Positions 26,319 to 63,269 of a stretch of 64,000 nucleotides of DNA are shown one piece after another. This DNA comes from Candidatus Doudnabacteria bacterium RIFCSPHIGHO2_02_FULL_42_25 (GTDB taxonomy: Bacteria > Patescibacteriota > Doudnabacteria > UBA920 > O2-02-FULL-48-8), in assembly GCA_001777665.1 (NCBI GenBank), contig MFEQ01000004.1, forward strand, positions 129,331 to 193,330, written 5' to 3'. The notes under the pieces were generated by a model. It saw only the letters and a program-made list of their open reading frames with translations, had not been told where the DNA came from and ran no database searches. The position numbers were made by a program, and so were the translations under genes. The stretch's first letter is position 1. Every line of letters starts with the position of its first letter.

Positions 26319-28347
26319 GGATTTGTAACAATTCCTCTGGAATGGCTTTTAAGAATCTAGAAGGAATAGAAATATTTCTGCTCCCAAATTGTTTGCGGGT
26401 CTGGGCGCATACAAGAAACAGCTGTTGCTTCGCTCTCGTAATCCCCACATAAGTCAGTCTCACTTCTTCGGCAATGTCTTTTGGATCCATCATTGATCTG
26501 GCATGTGGCAAGATCCCCTCTTCCAGTCCGACCAAAAATACTGTCTCGAATTCCAGACCTTTGGCCTGGTGCAGGGTCATCAGTGTTACTTTCGGAGAAT
26601 GTAAATCCATTTCATCTACTGATGTCATGAGCGCTACCTCTTCTAAAAATTTAGTCAGGCCTTCCTTCCAATTCATTTTACGGAAACTTCCAGCGACATT
26701 GAAAAGTTCCTGAATGTTTTCCCAACGTGTTTCTCCCTCTTCCGAACCATCACGCAGAAATGCTTCGTACCCAGTCAGCTTTAAAACTTGACGCAAGATA
26801 TCCAGTAGGTCTGCACTCTCATCTAAATTTTGAATCAAATTAACAGTTTCAAAAAAATGTTTAACAGATGGTTTGAGGTCCATCAATTTCGCTAATTCTT
26901 TCTCATCCTGTTCAATCAAAGCTTCCTTCAGCAGATCAAAACTTTTCGGCCCTATTCCCCGAGGTGGTACATTAATCACTCGTTTCAAACTTACCAAATC
27001 ATTTGGATTAATCAAAAGTCTTAGGTAACTTAAAATATCCTTGATTTCTTTGCGTTCATAGAACTTTAATCCGCCAACTATTTGATAAGGGATAGAGGCT
27101 TCAATCATAACTTCTTCCAAAACCCGGGATTGGGCATGAGTTCGATAAAGTATCGCGATATTGTTCAAACGCTGTCGATTTTTGAGTTTTGGGAGAATTT
27201 TTGACCGGGCACCTGCCCGCCACGCAAGCCAGCTTGCTGGCGTTGCAGGCGGGTGACGCATAATTCGGCCAAGAATCGTGTCGTCCGTATCCTCTATCTC
27301 ATATTGCAGCTCATTCGATTTACCATCCTGGATCTCGATAATTTTGGAAGCAACAAAATAGGCTTCTGCTAATTCATCCGGGGCAGAATAAAACATCGGA
27401 ATCATGCCTTTTTCATTTTCGGTCCACAAAGTTTTTTTGTGCTGTCTCGGACTAAGTTCAATAACTTTCTGGGCGATGGATAAAATCGGTTGAGTCGATC
27501 GGTAATTTTGCTCTAACCGAATAATTTTGGTTTCCGGATAATCTTTTTCAAAATCTAAAATATTTTGGAGGTTCGCCCCTCGAAAACCATAAATAGCTTG
27601 CGCATCGTCCCCCACCACAAAAATATTCTGATGATTGGCAACCAACATTTTCGTGAAAATATACTGGACGTGATTCGTATCCTGATATTCGTCGACCAAA
27701 ACATACTGCCAAAGATTTTGGTATTTCAAAAGCACGTCATCATGTTCTTGAAAAATTCTCACTGGTAACACCAAAAGATCTCCGAAATCGACGGCATTGT
27801 TTTTTCGAAGTTCAGTCTGATACATTTCGTAAACTTTTTTTACATTCAAATCAAAAGTAGTTTGGGTTGGTAAATCATCCGGCTCTTCTAAATTATTTTT
27901 GGCTCGATCTATAAGATGCGCAAACAATGATGGCTTAAATTTCGTCGGATCAATTCTTAAACGTAACAAAATATCTTTCAGCAAACTTTCTTGGTCATCA
28001 CTGTCATAAATGAGGAAATCCCTATCCAAACCAACTAAGGCACATTCTTGCCTTAGAATTCGGACACCTATTGAATGAAAAGTTCCCATCGTAGGGAGTT
28101 CCGATTTTCCGATCAATCCGATTATCCGAGTTTTCATTTCCCCAGCCGCCTTATTAGTAAAAGTTACAGCTAAAATACTATGTGGTTTTAACCCCAATTT
28201 TTTAATCAAATATACTATGCGCATAGTCAAAGCCCTAGTTTTACCACTGCCCGCACCAGCCAAAATTAACACCGGCCCTAGCGGCGCCTTTACAGCTTCT
28301 AATTGAGCTTGATTTAAACCGATTTGTTCAGCAGAATTTTTAGTCAT
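26305..28347 (-). CDS. uvrD: ATP-dependent DNA helicase UvrD/PcrA, carrying an in-frame GC-rich insertion
   Basis: Walker A AGAGSGKT, DEYQDT, motif IV ILYRTHAQSR, motif VI. The extra segment MRHPPATPASWLAWRAGARS is encoded by the element at 27205-27254. Confidence 0.9.
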   Translation of the reverse strand: MTKNSAEQIGLNQAQLEAVKAPLGPVLILAGAGSGKTRALTMRIVYLIKKLGLKPHSILAVTFTNKAAGEMKTRIIGLIGKSELPTMGTFHSIGVRILRQECALVGLDRDFLIYDSDDQESLLKDILLRLRIDPTKFKPSLFAHLIDRAKNNLEEPDDLPTQTTFDLNVKKVYEMYQTELRKNNAVDFGDLLVLPVRIFQEHDDVLLKYQNLWQYVLVDEYQDTNHVQYIFTKMLVANHQNIFVVGDDAQAIYGFRGANLQNILDFEKDYPETKIIRLEQNYRSTQPILSIAQKVIELSPRQHKKTLWTENEKGMIPMFYSAPDELAEAYFVASKIIEIQDGKSNELQYEIEDTDDTILGRIMRHPPATPASWLAWRAGARSKILPKLKNRQRLNNIAILYRTHAQSRVLEEVMIEASIPYQIVGGLKFYERKEIKDILSYLRLLINPNDLVSLKRVINVPPRGIGPKSFDLLKEALIEQDEKELAKLMDLKPSVKHFFETVNLIQNLDESADLLDILRQVLKLTGYEAFLRDGSEEGETRWENIQELFNVAGSFRKMNWKEGLTKFLEEVALMTSVDEMDLHSPKVTLMTLHQAKGLEFETVFLVGLEEGILPHARSMMDPKDIAEEVRLTYVGITRAKQQLFLVCAQTRKQFGSRNISIPSRFLKAIPEELLQIHEDF
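27205..27254. repeat. GC-rich palindromic element, family 1, in frame inside uvrD
   Basis: Its reverse complement shares 32 identical nt with the 24667 copy. The CDS reads through it without a stop. Confidence 0.7.
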
Positions 28348-40224: not shown

Positions 40225-40228
40225 CGTT

Positions 40229-40283
40229 AAACGGCAGCGCAACGCGTATCGGTAAACGTGAGACGATACGCGCGGCGCCGACG
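40229..40283. repeat. GC-rich palindromic element, family 2, intergenic copy (infC-rpmI)
   Basis: aacggcagcgcaacgcgtatcggtaaacgtgagacgatacgcgcggcgccgacg. Related to the in-frame copy inside rsmA. Confidence 0.6.
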
Positions 40284-40306
40284 AATAACGACTAACGCAT
40301 AAATAC

Positions 40307-44621: not shown

Positions 44622-45962
44622 TCAAGTAACATGTGTAAACGCAATTGCATCGGGAGCAAAGTCAGAAGTTTTCGTCAGTAATCCAGAGCGAATAGCAAAT
44701 TCTCCGTATTTATTATTAATGGAATCCAGGACTGGGGTTAATGTCGCATTTCTATCGACAAAGAGAGACAACTGCTTGACTTTTGGAGATAAATATGTGA
44801 ATCCTACGGCGATATGCATAACTTCACTAGGAAACTTCCATGCATCCCAAACTTTCAATGATTGTTCATACAACTCGAATCCGGTTTCTATAAATCCCTT
44901 TATTTTTCTGGATTTATGAAAATAACTACCCCGCCCGCCATCGCAAGCCTGATTACAAACATGCCCCGTGCTCAGGCGTTGCGGGCAGGCATCAGTCAAC
45001 GATACCGATAAATAAATACCAGAAGCCATCAACCCCTCTCTCCGCATCCTGCGCGATGCTTTTTCAGCTAATCGCAGTATAACTGATTTTAATTTCTCTT
45101 TGTCAGTGGTGCGAAAGTTCAAAACCCAAGAATTCCCAAAGGATTTCTGAGATGTCTCTTTCAGATTGTCCCTCTCCCCTTGCGGGAGAGGGTGGCGCGA
45201 AGCGCCGGGTGAGGGGTAACCCAAGAACCCACCCTCATCTGTCACTAACGTGACATCTTCTCCCGTCAAGGGAGAAGATTCTATAGAATCAATCTCTAAC
45301 CCATTTACGCGCTGCCATATATCAAATCCGGGTTTGCCAAACAAACTAATTAAATTTTGCACGGGATAATCCAACAACTGCAATGGGCTGGTGATATTCA
45401 ATTTTGCCAATCTTTTTTGCCAGCCTCGCGCAATACCCCATAAATCTGAAAGCTGCTTGTGTTTATAAATTTCTGGTAACTGATCGCGCCAGATCACGGT
45501 GAGTCCATCGGGTTTTTGCATGGCTCCGGCTAATTTAGCCAGGAATTTATTTTCTCCTATCCCGATGGAGCAAGTCAACCATTCCCCTATCTCTGATTTA
45601 ATCCGTCTTTTAATTTCAGCAGCTATCAACAATCCTTTGTCATCTGGAATTTCTAAAAAAGATTCATCAATACTATAAGGCTCGACTGACGGACTATAAT
45701 CCCGAAAAATTCTATTCATCTGATCATTCACTTCTCGATATTTATCGGGATCTGACCTAGTTACGATAATATTTGGATAAATTCTTTTGGCTTTATAAAT
45801 CGAGGTCCCTGTCCCTATCCCCAGTTTCTTGGCTTCTTTCGAAGTTCCGATCAGACAACTGGTTTCATGCAAAGAATTTCCCACACCTAAAGGACGGCCT
45901 CGCCAGAGCGGATTTGCTTGCTGCTCTACTGAAGCAAAAAAAGAATTCATATCGATAAGCAT
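44622..45962 (-). CDS. dinB: Y-family DNA polymerase IV (DinB-like) with two in-frame GC-rich insertions
   Basis: MLIDMNSFFASVEQ start, Y-family palm/fingers motifs, little-finger domain. Extra segments LTDACPQRLSTGHVCNQACDGGRGSY and PSPGASRHPLPQGERDNLKE are encoded by GC-rich palindromes. The ORF track's longer N-terminal extension is judged spurious. Confidence 0.8.
   Translation of the reverse strand: MLIDMNSFFASVEQQANPLWRGRPLGVGNSLHETSCLIGTSKEAKKLGIGTGTSIYKAKRIYPNIIVTRSDPDKYREVNDQMNRIFRDYSPSVEPYSIDESFLEIPDDKGLLIAAEIKRRIKSEIGEWLTCSIGIGENKFLAKLAGAMQKPDGLTVIWRDQLPEIYKHKQLSDLWGIARGWQKRLAKLNITSPLQLLDYPVQNLISLFGKPGFDIWQRVNGLEIDSIESSPLTGEDVTLVTDEGGFLGYPSPGASRHPLPQGERDNLKETSQKSFGNSWVLNFRTTDKEKLKSVILRLAEKASRRMRREGLMASGIYLSVSLTDACPQRLSTGHVCNQACDGGRGSYFHKSRKIKGFIETGFELYEQSLKVWDAWKFPSEVMHIAVGFTYLSPKVKQLSLFVDRNATLTPVLDSINNKYGEFAIRSGLLTKTSDFAPDAIAFTHVT
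44929..44992. repeat. GC-rich palindromic element (family 1-related) in frame inside dinB
   Basis: ccccgcccgccatcgcaagcctg...caggcgttgcgggcagg. The arm matches the reverse complement of the family-1 arm. Confidence 0.6.
45170..45222. repeat. Second GC-rich hairpin element in frame inside dinB (a different family)
   Basis: ccctctcccc-ttgc-gggagaggg and ggcgcgaagcgcc hairpins, then ggtgaggggtaaccc. Confidence 0.55.
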
Positions 45963-45975
45963 GGTGCGAGGAAGT

Positions 45976-46221
45976 CTAGTCGGCATAGGATTCGAGTAGT
46001 GTCCAAGATAAATTATCCGAGTTAAATTGGAGTTTAAAGTAATTAGTGTTATCGGAAACTGCGAAAAAATAGTACTTACTCCGACCTTCGAAGTTGGACC
46101 ACGATAAATTAATCTTTTTGATAGGAATTTCCCGGCCATGCCAAAGAAACTTGAGTGGCAAAGTTTGATTCTCGCCGAATTTAACGATTACTTCGATTGG
46201 TTCATTAATTTCTTCCAACAT
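45976..46221 (-). CDS. Small protein (81 aa) 14 nt upstream of dinB, possibly YolD-like
   Basis: ORF with a convincing hydrophobic core. Its position upstream of a Y-family polymerase is as in the B. subtilis yqjX-yqjW pair (inference). Confidence 0.35.
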   Translation of the reverse strand: MLEEINEPIEVIVKFGENQTLPLKFLWHGREIPIKKINLSWSNFEGRSKYYFFAVSDNTNYFKLQFNSDNLSWTLLESYAD

Positions 46222-47258: not shown

Positions 47259-47681
47259 CTAACCCTTCTTCAGCATTAAACACGCAGAATTAATACAGTA
47301 CCTTTTGCCTCCCTGATCCTTAGGGCCGTCGTCGAAGACGTGACCCAAATGCGAGCCACAGTTTTTACAAGTGACTTCGATCCGATGCACCTGCCCGCCA
47401 ATGCCTGCGGCATCAGGCGTTGGCAGGCGGGTCCCATGATCATCATCATCGCGAAGTTCGATATTTTTTAAATTAGCTGGCTCGGTAAATGATGGCCAGC
47501 CAGTTCCTGAATCAAATTTCGTATCAGATGAAAACAACTCATTATTACACACAGCGCAAACATACATACCTTTATCTTTGGTATGCACGTACTGGCCGCT
47601 GAAAGGAGCTTCAGTCCCCTTCTTCCTCATAATCTCGTACTGTTCTGGCGTGAGTTTTTTCTTTAGTTCTTCATCATTCAT
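47259..47681 (-). CDS. msrB: Peptide-methionine (R)-S-oxide reductase MsrB with an in-frame GC-rich insertion
   Basis: CxxC...CxxC zinc site and catalytic GHVF/RYCINS motifs. The extra segment TRLPTPDAAGIGGQV is encoded by the element at 47388-47433. Confidence 0.85.
   Translation of the reverse strand: MNDEELKKKLTPEQYEIMRKKGTEAPFSGQYVHTKDKGMYVCAVCNNELFSSDTKFDSGTGWPSFTEPANLKNIELRDDDDHGTRLPTPDAAGIGGQVHRIEVTCKNCGSHLGHVFDDGPKDQGGKRYCINSACLMLKKG
47388..47433. repeat. GC-rich palindromic element, family 1, in frame inside msrB
   Basis: cacctgcccgccaatgcctgcggcatcaggcgttggcaggcgggtccc. Confidence 0.65.
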
Positions 47682-63018: not shown

Positions 63019-63106
63019 TAGCTTTCGCTAATTTTTTCTTTGCTAGCCACTAATTTTCCCAAATCTATACATATGTGAAAATTTGGGAAATTGCCTTTCT
63101 CGCTTC

Positions 63107-63127
63107 CCGCCTGCCGGCGAGGCAGGC
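63107..63127. repeat. Palindrome family 3 variant GCCTGCC-GGCGA-GGCAGGC
   Basis: Read directly. Confidence 0.5.
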
Positions 63128-63194
63128 AACCCGTTCGAATCCTACGCTCAAAGAAATAGAAAAAATCCCGACCGAATGGTCAGGAATTTTTCTT

Positions 63195-63269
63195 TGGCTC
63201 CGACGGTAGGATTCGAACCTACGACCTGGGGATTAACAGTCCCTCGCTCTACCGCTGAGCTACGTCGGA
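63195..63269 (-). tRNA. tRNA-Asn (anticodon GTT)
   Basis: Reverse complement: acceptor TCCGACG...CGTCGGA-G-CCA, D-arm GCTCAGCGGTAGAGC, anticodon loop CUGUUAA, T-arm GTAGGTTCGAATCCTAC. Confidence 0.85.

What the first reader, a model, noticed from the sequence alone, without database searches (positions are those of the whole stretch)
27205..27254. Family of GC-rich palindromic elements (32-nt identical core) inserted in frame into uvrD and msrB and present intergenically
The 50-nt element inside uvrD encodes MRHPPATPASWLAWRAGARS in the variable 2B region. Its reverse complement is identical over 32 nt (gcaacgccagcaagctggcttgcgtggcgggc) to an intergenic copy at 24667-24713 that sits just upstream of the first secretion-locus gene. 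Related imperfect palindromes with arms CCTGCCCGC(C/A)A(C/T)GCCTG occur in frame in msrB (47388-47433, adding about 15 aa to an otherwise canonical MsrB) and in dinB (44929-44992). All copies are about 65-70% GC in a roughly 38% GC genome, are themselves palindromic, and never introduce a stop codon. This is the behaviour described for Rickettsia palindromic elements, which are selfish palindromes tolerated inside protein-coding genes. It is not, to my knowledge, a described feature of CPR genomes.
Basis: partly seen in the sequence, partly recalled or inferred. Interest (0 to 1): 0.75.

Follow-up and report, generated by a model that had tools for sequence, protein, structure and literature searches.

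The report
Tiny GC-rich palindromes inserted into genes
A family of roughly 42-base GC-rich hairpin-forming DNA repeats has inserted itself, precisely and in frame, into conserved genes (uvrD, msrB, dinB) of a Candidatus Doudnabacteria genome, and the same repeats turn up in many other candidate-phyla-radiation bacteria, a lineage where I found no earlier report of them.

Summary
Four imperfect palindromes with shared ends (5'-CCTGCCCGCMA ... TKGCRGGCGGG-3') lie in the 64-kb window, where none are expected by chance. Three are 42 nt and one is 60 nt; they are 67-76% GC against 40% for the window.

Three sit in frame in uvrD, msrB and dinB. One sits 16 nt upstream of the first gene of a secretion-like locus.

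All four are derived insertions:
- 111 UvrD orthologs lack exactly the 14 inserted residues.
- A syntenic relative lacks the 42 nt in uvrD and the intergenic copy.
- Another relative has the empty msrB site (GGC A^TG CAT).
- Only a 96%-identical DinB shares the dinB copy.

Insertion is exact, with no target-site duplication and no target motif.

The same ends occur in at least 13 named CPR lineages, and in Desulfobacteria and low-GC Gammaproteobacteria MAGs. One 42-mer is identical in three CPR lineages and differs by one base in two more.

No transposase could be tied to the family. The closest knowns are intragenic REP and RPE elements, which also favour DNA-repair genes, but the family lacks their defining tags. 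I class it as a new variant of a known kind, of moderate to good interest.

The parts
27212..27253 (+). Copy B: 42-nt palindromic element inside uvrD, antisense to the gene. It encodes PPATPASWLAWRAG.
   Evidence: Pattern match. Absent from 111 orthologs. An exact 42-nt gap in the syntenic relative L121. Removing it restores CAT GCC CGG (H-A-R). It lies in a pLDDT<50 segment of the UvrD model.
24672..24713 (+). Copy A: 42-nt intergenic element, 16 nt upstream of the ATG (24655) of the first gene of the secretion-like locus.
   Evidence: The 69 nt that contain it are missing in L121. The identical 42-mer occurs in L034 (Levyibacteriota) and L084 (Falkowbacteria).
47390..47431 (+). Copy C: 42-nt element inside msrB, antisense to the gene. 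It encodes TRLPTPDAAGIGGQ.
   Evidence: An exact 14-aa gap against solved MsrB structures. DNA-level empty site in L208, GGC A^TG CAT.
44930..44989 (-). Copy D: 60-nt element with the same ends and a longer centre, inside dinB in sense orientation. It encodes ACPQRLSTGHVCNQACDGGR.
   Evidence: Present only in the window and in the 96%-identical P0121, out of 104 aligned DinB sequences.
26305..28347 (-). Host gene uvrD/pcrA (680 aa).
   Evidence: Pfam UvrD-helicase and UvrD_C. Orthologs are named Candidatus Doudnabacteria.
47259..47681 (-). Host gene msrB (140 aa).
   Evidence: Pfam SelR, E = 2.6e-47. PDB matches.
44622..45989 (-). Host gene dinB (Y-family polymerase). The listed ORF runs up to 46139, but homology starts near residue 60 of that ORF.
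   Evidence: Pfam IMS and IMS_C. PDB DNA polymerase IV. Ortholog alignment.
25978..26046 (.). Second, unrelated palindrome family: a 69-nt in-frame insert in ksgA/rsmA.
   Evidence: Inverted repeat I6. Fold z = -3.6. An exact 69-nt gap in L121, whose KsgA is 265 aa against 292 aa here.
40225..40290 (.). Second-family copy, intergenic just downstream of infC (upstream of rplT).
   Evidence: Inverted repeat I3. Fold. Shares the GCGTATCG(n12)CGATACGC core.
45159..45272 (-). Third, composite multi-hairpin element: 114 nt, 60% GC, in frame in dinB. It encodes PLTGEDV...HPLPQGERDNLK.
   Evidence: Shared only with a subset of DinB orthologs. In L084 its middle hairpin is replaced by a main-family 42-mer.

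Best explanation
These are copies of a non-autonomous, selfish palindromic repeat family of the REP/RPE type.

**Anatomy.** Each copy has a constant stem base of about 9-11 bp, (CCYG)2CCA...TGG(CRGG)2, closing a more variable inner stem and loop. Total length is usually 40-45 nt, with a mode of 42.

**Shown here.**
- A whole palindrome is added at a single phosphodiester bond.
- Nothing is duplicated or lost at the target.
- There is no recognisable target motif.
- Either orientation is used.

**What survives.** Copies landing between genes persist. Copies landing in genes persist only if they keep the reading frame and fall in a permissive loop or linker. They are then simply translated into a 14-20-residue peptide.

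**Inferred, not shown.** The element moves as a single-stranded DNA hairpin. A trans-acting enzyme encoded elsewhere handles it; an HUH/Y1 (RAYT- or IS200-like) transposase is the most plausible candidate. The family passes between lineages on some vector, because identical 42-mers sit at unrelated sites in different CPR lineages.
For: **A real multi-copy family.** 4 copies against 0 expected in the window. At least 120 loci in a capped scan of species-representative genomes.

**Derived, exact insertions without duplication.** Filled and empty sites are compared at DNA level for two genes of the window and one gene elsewhere:
- uvrD against L121
- msrB against L208
- a RAYT gene in L072 against L128

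Protein-level gaps agree. Flanks of 102 copies show no direct repeat, no extension of the palindrome and only a weak purine preference at position -1.

**Both orientations.** Relative to host ORFs, 20 copies are in the same sense and 12 antisense.

**Frame kept inside conserved genes.** Pfam domains lie on both sides of the insert in UvrB, UvrC, ThrRS, ArgRS, TsaD, RNase J and histidine kinases.

**Permissive site.** The uvrD insert falls in a pLDDT<50 linker.

**Repeated independent hits on one gene.** Other Doudnabacteria DinB proteins carry family-type peptides at other sites (RLPGPDAAGQGGQA, PARHASQGEAGGE).

**The same 42-mer at unrelated sites.** It is identical in Doudnabacteria, Levyibacteriota and Falkowbacteria, and differs by one base in Shapirobacteria and Saccharibacteria.

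**Y1/RAYT-like genes exist in element-bearing genomes**.

**Precedent.** REPs and RPEs inside uvrA, uvrB, uvrD, polymerase and aaRS genes are described in PMC3733652.
Against: **No mobilising enzyme was linked to the family.**
- The four RAYT-like genes found near copies are flanked by their own, different palindromes.
- In L072 the element is an insertion that disrupts the RAYT gene.
- 80 relatives of that RAYT have no copy nearby.
- No gene family recurs next to copies.

**No strand signal.** Hairpin stability shows no asymmetry that would point to one single-stranded intermediate.

**No vector found.** The viral collection gave only 5 atypical matches and plasmids none.

**Conserved ends could mean host-level function.** The stem base is invariant across very distant phyla, which could instead reflect selection for a function.

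**No evidence of current activity.** No filled/empty polymorphism within a single population was seen, so present-day mobility is not shown.
Confidence: 0.72

Rival explanations
1. The palindromes are host-selected functional hairpins, for example 3'-end mRNA stabilisers or terminators, or binding sites for a conserved DNA- or RNA-binding protein. They would be kept by selection, and the intragenic copies would be by-products.
For: - The 9-11-nt ends are the same across CPR, Desulfobacteria and Gammaproteobacteria while the centres vary.
- Copies sit at the same place, the 3' end of fpg, in three CPR genomes, with different centres.
- 11 of 129 copies lie within 200 nt of a tRNA gene.
- About a third of copies are clearly intergenic.
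- REPs are reported mostly downstream of ORFs and are thought to act as RNA elements.
Against: - There is no T-run after the stem.
- Orientation relative to transcription is mixed, 20 against 12.
- Insertion in the middle of uvrD, msrB, uvrB and aaRS genes makes no sense for a terminator.
- Close relatives do without the copies.
- No Rfam family matches.
- Density is about 1 per 16 kb in the window, and no isolated half-sites are seen.
Confidence: 0.12
2. The intragenic copies are not translated. They are removed from, or skipped in, the mRNA, as with intron-like excision or programmed translational bypassing of GC-cluster-derived inserts in some yeast mitochondria.
For: - The msrB insert lies directly before the conserved MHR(I/V)E motif, where 14 extra residues might be harmful.
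- The elements form strong hairpins.
Against: - All four in-window intragenic inserts (42, 42, 60 and 69 nt) are multiples of three with no stop codon.
- Of 11 deeply internal copies in other genomes, all sit in ORFs that continue in the same frame, with Pfam domains on both sides. This set was selected for a spanning ORF, so it shows that such cases exist, not how common they are.
- A 41-nt copy in a dispensable RAYT gene does break the frame, as expected if nothing removes the element.
Confidence: 0.05
3. The copies are classical MITEs: deletion derivatives of an insertion sequence, moved by a DDE transposase that recognises the terminal inverted repeats.
For: The two ends are 9-11-nt inverted repeats, and the copies are short, non-coding and dispersed.
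Against: - No target-site duplication in three filled/empty comparisons or in the flanks of 102 copies.
- The whole unit is a single hairpin of about 42 nt, below usual MITE sizes.
- No longer element with the same ends and no recurrent neighbouring transposase.
Confidence: 0.06
4. The inserts are assembly or binning artefacts of metagenome-assembled genomes.
For: All carriers are MAGs. Some short contigs labelled Gammaproteobacteria or Actinomycetota could be mis-binned.
Against: - The inserts keep the reading frame of conserved genes.
- The dinB copy is shared with a 96%-identical but not identical protein, which shows inheritance with divergence.
- Copies occur in assemblies from many unrelated projects, on contigs of 200-600 kb and on closed chromosomes.
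Confidence: 0.02

Closest known systems
REP sequences (repetitive extragenic palindromes), including the GTAG- and CGTC-tagged superfamilies and their intragenic members (Di Nocera et al. 2013, PMC3733652)
   Same: - Short GC-rich imperfect palindromes, dispersed in many copies, mostly intergenic but also inside ORFs where they are read in frame.
- Intragenic copies favour DNA-repair and replication genes (uvrA/B/D, error-prone polymerases) and aaRS genes, as seen here for uvrD, dinB, uvrB, uvrC, fpg, ThrRS and ArgRS.
- CGTC REPs likewise have no associated transposase.
   Different: - No unpaired GTAG or CGTC tag at either end.
- A longer stem, up to about 18 bp in individual copies, against 5-13 bp.
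- No head-to-head dimers were seen among the loci fetched.
- No RAYT gene is flanked by the family.
- Hosts are CPR bacteria, and the same ends are shared across phyla.
Rickettsia palindromic elements (RPE-1 to RPE-10)
   Same: Palindromic repeats inserted in frame into conserved protein genes and tolerated as extra surface peptides. They are also found between genes, and several families coexist in one small AT-rich genome. The window holds three unrelated palindrome families, in uvrD/msrB/dinB, in ksgA and in dinB.
   Different: - RPE-1 is about 100-150 bp (my own knowledge); these are 40-60 nt and much more GC-rich than the genome.
- The host lineage differs. Sequence similarity to RPE consensus sequences was not tested.
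- RPE-4 and RPE-6 are CGTC-tagged REPs, a tag absent here.
GC clusters of yeast mitochondrial genomes
   Same: From my own knowledge: 30-60-bp GC-rich palindromes scattered in a very AT-rich genome. They are polymorphic between strains, occasionally in frame inside a protein gene (var1), and their mobilising activity is unknown.
   Different: These are organellar and eukaryotic. Some classes show short target duplications. There is no sequence relationship.
MITEs (for example Correia, Nezha, the Coxiella QMITEs)
   Same: Short non-autonomous repeats with inverted ends that can land in or next to genes and add peptides.
   Different: MITEs make target-site duplications and derive from an identifiable IS. 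Neither holds here.

Membership tests
Rickettsia palindromic elements (RPE) | Repeat able to form a stable hairpin | tested here: met
   Single-strand folds of -14 to -21 kcal/mol. z = -3.4 for the intergenic copy and about -1.9 to -2.2 for the three intragenic copies.
Rickettsia palindromic elements (RPE) | Inserted in frame in conserved protein genes with the host ORF kept | tested here: met
   uvrD, msrB and dinB.
Rickettsia palindromic elements (RPE) | Size of about 100-150 bp for the classical RPE-1, and sequence similarity to an RPE consensus | tested here: not met
   Units are 40-60 nt. Sequence comparison with RPE consensus sequences was not possible with the material at hand. The host is Candidatus Doudnabacteria.
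REP, GTAG/CGTC-tagged superfamilies (PMC3733652) | Small palindromic unit of 20-40 bp, stem 5-13 bp | tested here: inconclusive
   Units are 40-45 nt (mode 42). Individual copies pair over up to about 18 bp. This sits at or just above the published range.
REP, GTAG/CGTC-tagged superfamilies (PMC3733652) | Unpaired GTAG or CGTC motif at one end | tested here: not met
   Ends are CCTG...CGGG. Flank positions -10 to +10 of 102 copies show no such consensus.
REP, GTAG/CGTC-tagged superfamilies (PMC3733652) | Cognate RAYT gene flanked by the repeats (a REPtron; holds for GTAG REPs only) | tested here: not met
   RAYT-like genes in L009, L082 and L110 are flanked by other palindromes. In L072 the element interrupts the gene. 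80 relatives have no copy nearby. Whole genomes could not be searched.
REP, GTAG/CGTC-tagged superfamilies (PMC3733652) | Intragenic members read in frame, often in repair or replication genes | tested here: met
   uvrD, dinB, uvrB, uvrC and fpg, plus ThrRS and ArgRS. Compare.
MITE | Terminal inverted repeats | tested here: met
   Inverted ends of 9-11 nt.
MITE | Target-site duplication | tested here: not met
   None in three filled/empty pairs. Flank statistics show none.
MITE | Parent insertion sequence with the same ends | tested here: not met
   No recurrent neighbouring gene and no long element bounded by the ends in about 100 loci. This is limited to 8-kb blocks.
IS200/IS605-derived elements (PATE) | Insertion 3' of a fixed tetra- or pentanucleotide | tested here: not met
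   No conserved flank.
DNA uptake sequences | A 10-12-mer present singly at about one per kb throughout the genome | tested here: not met
   Only the 8 half-sites of the 4 palindromes, plus 2 weak matches, in 64 kb.
Any curated RNA family (Rfam 15) | Match at the gathering score | tested here: not met
   None at the elements. Only sub-threshold generic hairpin hits.

The most novel reading that the evidence does not exclude
A single ultra-short (about 42 nt) palindromic mobile element, with a stem base that is the same in every copy recovered, is spreading horizontally across many CPR lineages and into unrelated bacteria (Desulfobacteria, low-GC Gammaproteobacteria). It inserts at a single bond without duplication or target preference, and it has no linked transposase. 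This would imply a mobilisation route not yet described: a widely shared trans-acting enzyme, or a vector with a very broad host range.
Probability: 0.25. Interest if true: 0.8.

Novelty: new variant of a known kind. Interest (0 to 1): 0.58.

Why it matters
- **Genome economy.** CPR bacteria have very small, streamlined genomes, yet this one tolerates at least three families of selfish palindromes inside core genes. Its DinB orthologs are peppered with such inserts at about ten sites. That bears on how reduced genomes gain new peptide segments.
- **Annotation and phylogeny.** The inserts create lineage-specific "insertions" in marker proteins, which matters for how these proteins are annotated and aligned.
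- **An open question made testable.** Exact, duplication-free insertion and ends shared across phyla offer a clean system for asking how REP- and RPE-like elements move, which remains unresolved.
- **A repeated bias.** The preference for DNA-repair genes and aaRS genes repeats a pattern reported for REPs in Proteobacteria, Opitutus and Rickettsia. It therefore looks general and still lacks an explanation.

Tried and rejected
- **RAYT as the cognate transposase.** Four Y1_Tnp genes lie in element-bearing loci, but each has its own flanking palindrome. The L072 adjacency is an insertion into the gene. 80 relatives carry no copy.
- **Elements interrupting tRNA genes.** Flanks in L029, L068 and L118 looked tRNA-like. 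Deleting the element never uncovers a new tRNA; copies only lie next to tRNAs.
- **Elements built to avoid stop codons.** Open-frame counts equal those of shuffled controls.
- **Strand-specific hairpin.** Top and bottom strands fold equally well.
- **Target motif CA^TG.** This is seen at uvrD and msrB but does not hold across 100 copies.
- **Covariation in the inner stem.** A gapless alignment of the 42-mers supports only the terminal stem and two inner pairs. The centres differ in register, so this was not informative.
- **Phage or plasmid vector.** 5 atypical viral matches and no plasmid match.
- **Known RNA family.** None.
- **Recurrent neighbouring gene.** None beyond common families.
- **uvrA-uvrC loci as an orthologous site.** The copies are at different positions.
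- **Literature.** Searches by sequence and by keywords gave no report for CPR.
Full report

Yes. They share the same ends. The pattern CCTGCCCGCMA-N(18-40)-TKGCRGGCGGG matches at:
- 24672-24713 (+)
- 27212-27253 (+)
- 47390-47431 (+)
- 44930-44989 (-)

That is four matches against a mean of 0.00 in 100 dinucleotide-preserving shuffles. A relaxed version allowing a mismatch in each end finds the same four and no others; Markov shuffles give a mean of 0.02.

Copy A and the reverse complement of the uvrD copy differ at only 3 of 42 positions, which includes the 32-nt identical core.

Each copy folds as a single hairpin. The fold is clearly stronger than shuffles for the intergenic copy (z = -3.4). 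It is weaker for the three intragenic copies (z about -1.9 to -2.2).

The copies are 67-76% GC in a window of 40.4% GC.

**2. Are the intragenic copies insertions?**

Yes, and the boundaries are exact.

*uvrD.* The UvrD protein (Pfam UvrD-helicase and UvrD_C) has close orthologs annotated as Candidatus Doudnabacteria. In an alignment of 112 sequences, every one of the 111 orthologs reads RIMR(H/N)-ARSK, where the window reads RIMRH-PPATPASWLAWRAG-ARSK. A syntenic contig from a relative (L121, UvrD 87% identical) lacks exactly 42 nt there. Deleting 27212-27253 restores CAT GCC CGG.

*msrB.* MsrB aligns to solved MsrB structures with one gap of exactly 14 residues, TRLPTPDAAGIGGQ. A Doudnabacteria contig with the same msrB-dinB arrangement (L208, MsrB 126 aa) shows the empty site at DNA level. 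It reads GGC A^TG CAT, where the window has GGG A[42 nt]TG CAT. The element split the Met codon of the conserved G-M-H-R motif.

*dinB.* The 60-nt copy encodes 20 residues. They are present only in the window and in a 96%-identical protein, out of 104 aligned sequences.

*Copy A.* It lies in a 69-nt stretch that L121 lacks, 16 nt upstream of the ATG of the first gene of a locus. In L121 that locus continues into PrgI-, TraC- and VirB4-like genes.

*Elsewhere.* A third filled/empty pair exists in another lineage. A 41-nt copy sits in the N-terminal coding part of a RAYT-like gene of a Desulfobacterales MAG (L072), and a 90%-identical gene (L128) is empty at that point.

None of the three DNA-level pairs shows a target-site duplication.

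**3. How wide is the family?**

Matches in genomes above about 60% GC look like chance; they have no inner symmetry. About 100 matches in genomes of 31-52% GC are clearly the same kind of object: 40-57 nt, mode 42, palindromic.

Named carriers are:
- Saccharibacteria, Doudnabacteria, Levyibacteriota, Curtissbacteria, Shapirobacteria
- Woesebacteria, Collierbacteria, Nomurabacteria, Yanofskybacteria, Jacksonbacteria
- Buchananbacteria, Wildermuthbacteria, Liptonbacteria, Magasanikbacteria, Falkowbacteria

The same ends also occur in non-CPR genomes:
- Desulfobacteria and related, including closed 3.6-5.6-Mb chromosomes
- low-GC Gammaproteobacteria MAGs, on contigs of 400-450 kb
- a few others

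The exact 42-mer of copy A recurs at unrelated sites in a Levyibacteriota and a Falkowbacteria genome. With one mismatch it also recurs in Shapirobacteria and in a closed Saccharibacteria chromosome.

A further DinB insert (P0162) has related ends, CCCGCCT...AGGCGGG. The superfamily is therefore broader than my pattern.

**4. Behaviour of the copies.**

| Property | Result |
|---|---|
| Location of 103 low-GC copies | 32 in ORFs of at least 150 codons; 32 clearly non-coding; 39 ambiguous |
| Orientation relative to the ORF | 20 same sense, 12 antisense |
| Direct repeat at flanks | none |
| Extension of the palindrome into flanks | none |
| Target motif | none; only a purine preference at position -1 |
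| Stop-codon depletion beyond composition | none |
| Difference in fold stability between strands | none |
| Proximity to tRNA genes | 11 of 129 copies within 200 nt; none interrupts a tRNA |

Host genes of deeply internal or C-terminal copies in other genomes are:
- UvrB, UvrC and UvrD (the last in two Nomurabacteria, near the C terminus)
- Fpg (three CPR genomes, at the C terminus)
- ThrRS and ArgRS
- TsaD and RNase J
- two histidine kinases, a methyltransferase and a glycosyltransferase

Pfam domains lie on both sides of the insert in the same frame.

In the AlphaFold model of the window's UvrD (mean pLDDT 82), the inserted residues 365-378 fall inside a segment with pLDDT below 50, spanning 364-381. 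That is a flexible linker.

Other Doudnabacteria DinB proteins carry peptides that are translations of the same family at other positions (RLPGPDAAGQGGQA, PARHASQGEAGGE). They also carry at least four other palindrome-derived peptide types, spread over about ten sites.

**5. Who moves it?**

This is not resolved.

Clustering all ORFs of the element-bearing loci found no strongly recurrent neighbour. The only relevant cluster is a set of four RAYT-like genes, identified by Pfam Y1_Tnp and by the HUH and catalytic-Tyr motifs visible in the sequences.
- Three of them are bracketed by their own, different palindromes (AAGGACGTCnGACGTCCTT in L009, TGTGGAGGGCGCCCCTCCACA in L082, CACCTTAGAGGTG in L110).
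- In the fourth, the element is an insertion into the gene.
- None of 80 relatives of that gene fetched from metagenomes has a copy nearby.

The viral collection gave five atypical matches, and plasmids gave none.

What is shown is therefore the outcome: exact, duplication-free, orientation-free insertion of a whole hairpin. The single-stranded hairpin intermediate and an HUH-type enzyme are inferred by analogy with REP/RAYT and IS200/IS605 biology. This analogy rests on my own knowledge and on PMC3733652.

**6. Comparison with what is known.**

Di Nocera et al. 2013 (PMC3733652) define REPs as 20-40-bp palindromes. Most carry an unpaired GTAG or CGTC tag. That paper reports several things relevant here:
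- REPs occur inside ORFs in several species.
- Many intragenic REPs lie in uvrA, uvrB, uvrD/rep, polA, recBCD and dnaE2, and in aaRS genes.
- RPE-4 and RPE-6 of Rickettsia are CGTC REPs.
- CGTC REPs have no associated transposase.

The present family behaves the same way. It differs in these respects:
- It has no tag.
- It has a longer stem.
- No dimers were seen among the loci fetched.
- It lives in CPR genomes.
- It shares its ends across phyla.

It is not a MITE, because there is no target duplication and no parent IS. It matches no Rfam family.

Five literature searches found no description for CPR. That library excludes most subscription journals, so an earlier report cannot be ruled out.

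**7. Verdict.**

The RPE-like reading is supported as a description of behaviour. It is not supported as family membership.

The finding is a new variant of a known kind of element. The points most worth following are:
- the cross-phylum conservation, including identical 42-mers
- the exact, duplication-free insertion
- the repeated bias towards DNA-repair genes

The mechanism of movement remains an inference.

Noticed in passing
window 25978-26046 and 40225-40290: A second, unrelated palindrome family of about 66-69 nt and 59% GC, with core GCGTATCG-n12-CGATACGC. One copy is an in-frame 23-aa insert in ksgA that the relative L121 lacks (KsgA 265 aa there, 292 aa here). The other lies between infC and rplT.
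   Followed up: partly
window 45159-45272; L084 (reverse strand, about position 1804-1881): A third, composite multi-hairpin element of 114 nt sits in frame in dinB (38 aa, PLTGEDV...HPLPQGER) and is shared by only some DinB orthologs. In a Falkowbacteria contig the same CCCTCTCC..GGAGAGGG / GGTGAGGGG frame has a main-family 42-mer in place of its middle hairpin, so the palindromes nest or swap modules. E. coli genomes hold a weakly similar intergenic repeat (76% identity over 50 nt, E = 0.2, not significant).
   Followed up: partly
window 24802-25464: About 650 nt with three small ORFs lie between ksgA and the secretion-like locus: a 55-aa product whose sequence looks cysteine-pair rich to my eye, and two short hydrophobic ones of 69 and 36 aa. 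The syntenic relative L121 has only 55 nt between the two genes.
   Followed up: no
DinB orthologs P0121-P0223 (alignment): DinB of Doudnabacteria is a hotspot for inserts. The base length is about 388-397 aa, but many orthologs are 410-561 aa. The lineage-specific inserts fall at about ten positions and look like translations of several different GC-rich palindrome families (for example FDGSAAR...RYAQ and SPSGRGW...SPPKGE).
   Followed up: partly
L025, L036, L039 (3' end of fpg/mutM): In three CPR genomes, the last zinc-finger codons of Fpg (F-C-P-A-C-Q, TGC CCC GCC TGC CAG) are themselves one arm of a family palindrome. The stop codon lies in the loop and the other arm lies downstream. The centres differ between the genomes. 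This is either an old conserved copy or repeated capture at a site that resembles the arm.
   Followed up: partly
L009 5119-5880; L082 781-1425; L110 1760-2555: RAYT-like Y1 transposase genes occur in Saccharibacteria MAGs (L009, L082) and a Gammaproteobacteria-labelled MAG (L110). Each is bracketed by its own short palindrome, a REPtron-like layout. I found no report of this layout for CPR.
   Followed up: partly
loci L008, L040, L055, L075, L016, L041 and window uvrD, dinB: Host genes of intragenic copies are enriched for DNA repair (UvrB, UvrC, UvrD, DinB, Fpg) and aminoacyl-tRNA synthetases. This mirrors the bias reported for REPs in other phyla. By my rough estimate, 4 of 14 unbiased host genes are repair genes, against a few per cent expected.
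   Followed up: partly
window 63133-63218: A 41-nt inverted repeat, 78% complementary, pairs the 3' part of tRNA-Asn (63195-63269, minus strand) with a partial copy of its T-arm on the other side of a terminator-like hairpin. A short GC-rich hairpin (CCCGCCTGCCGGCGAGGCAGGC, 63106-63127) lies just upstream. This may be the remnant of an integration site. No tRNA is called there.
   Followed up: partly
window 44622-46139: The dinB ORF as listed is 505 aa. Homology to DNA polymerase IV begins at about residue 60, and most orthologs start there, so the first 50 or so codons are probably not part of the protein.
   Followed up: no
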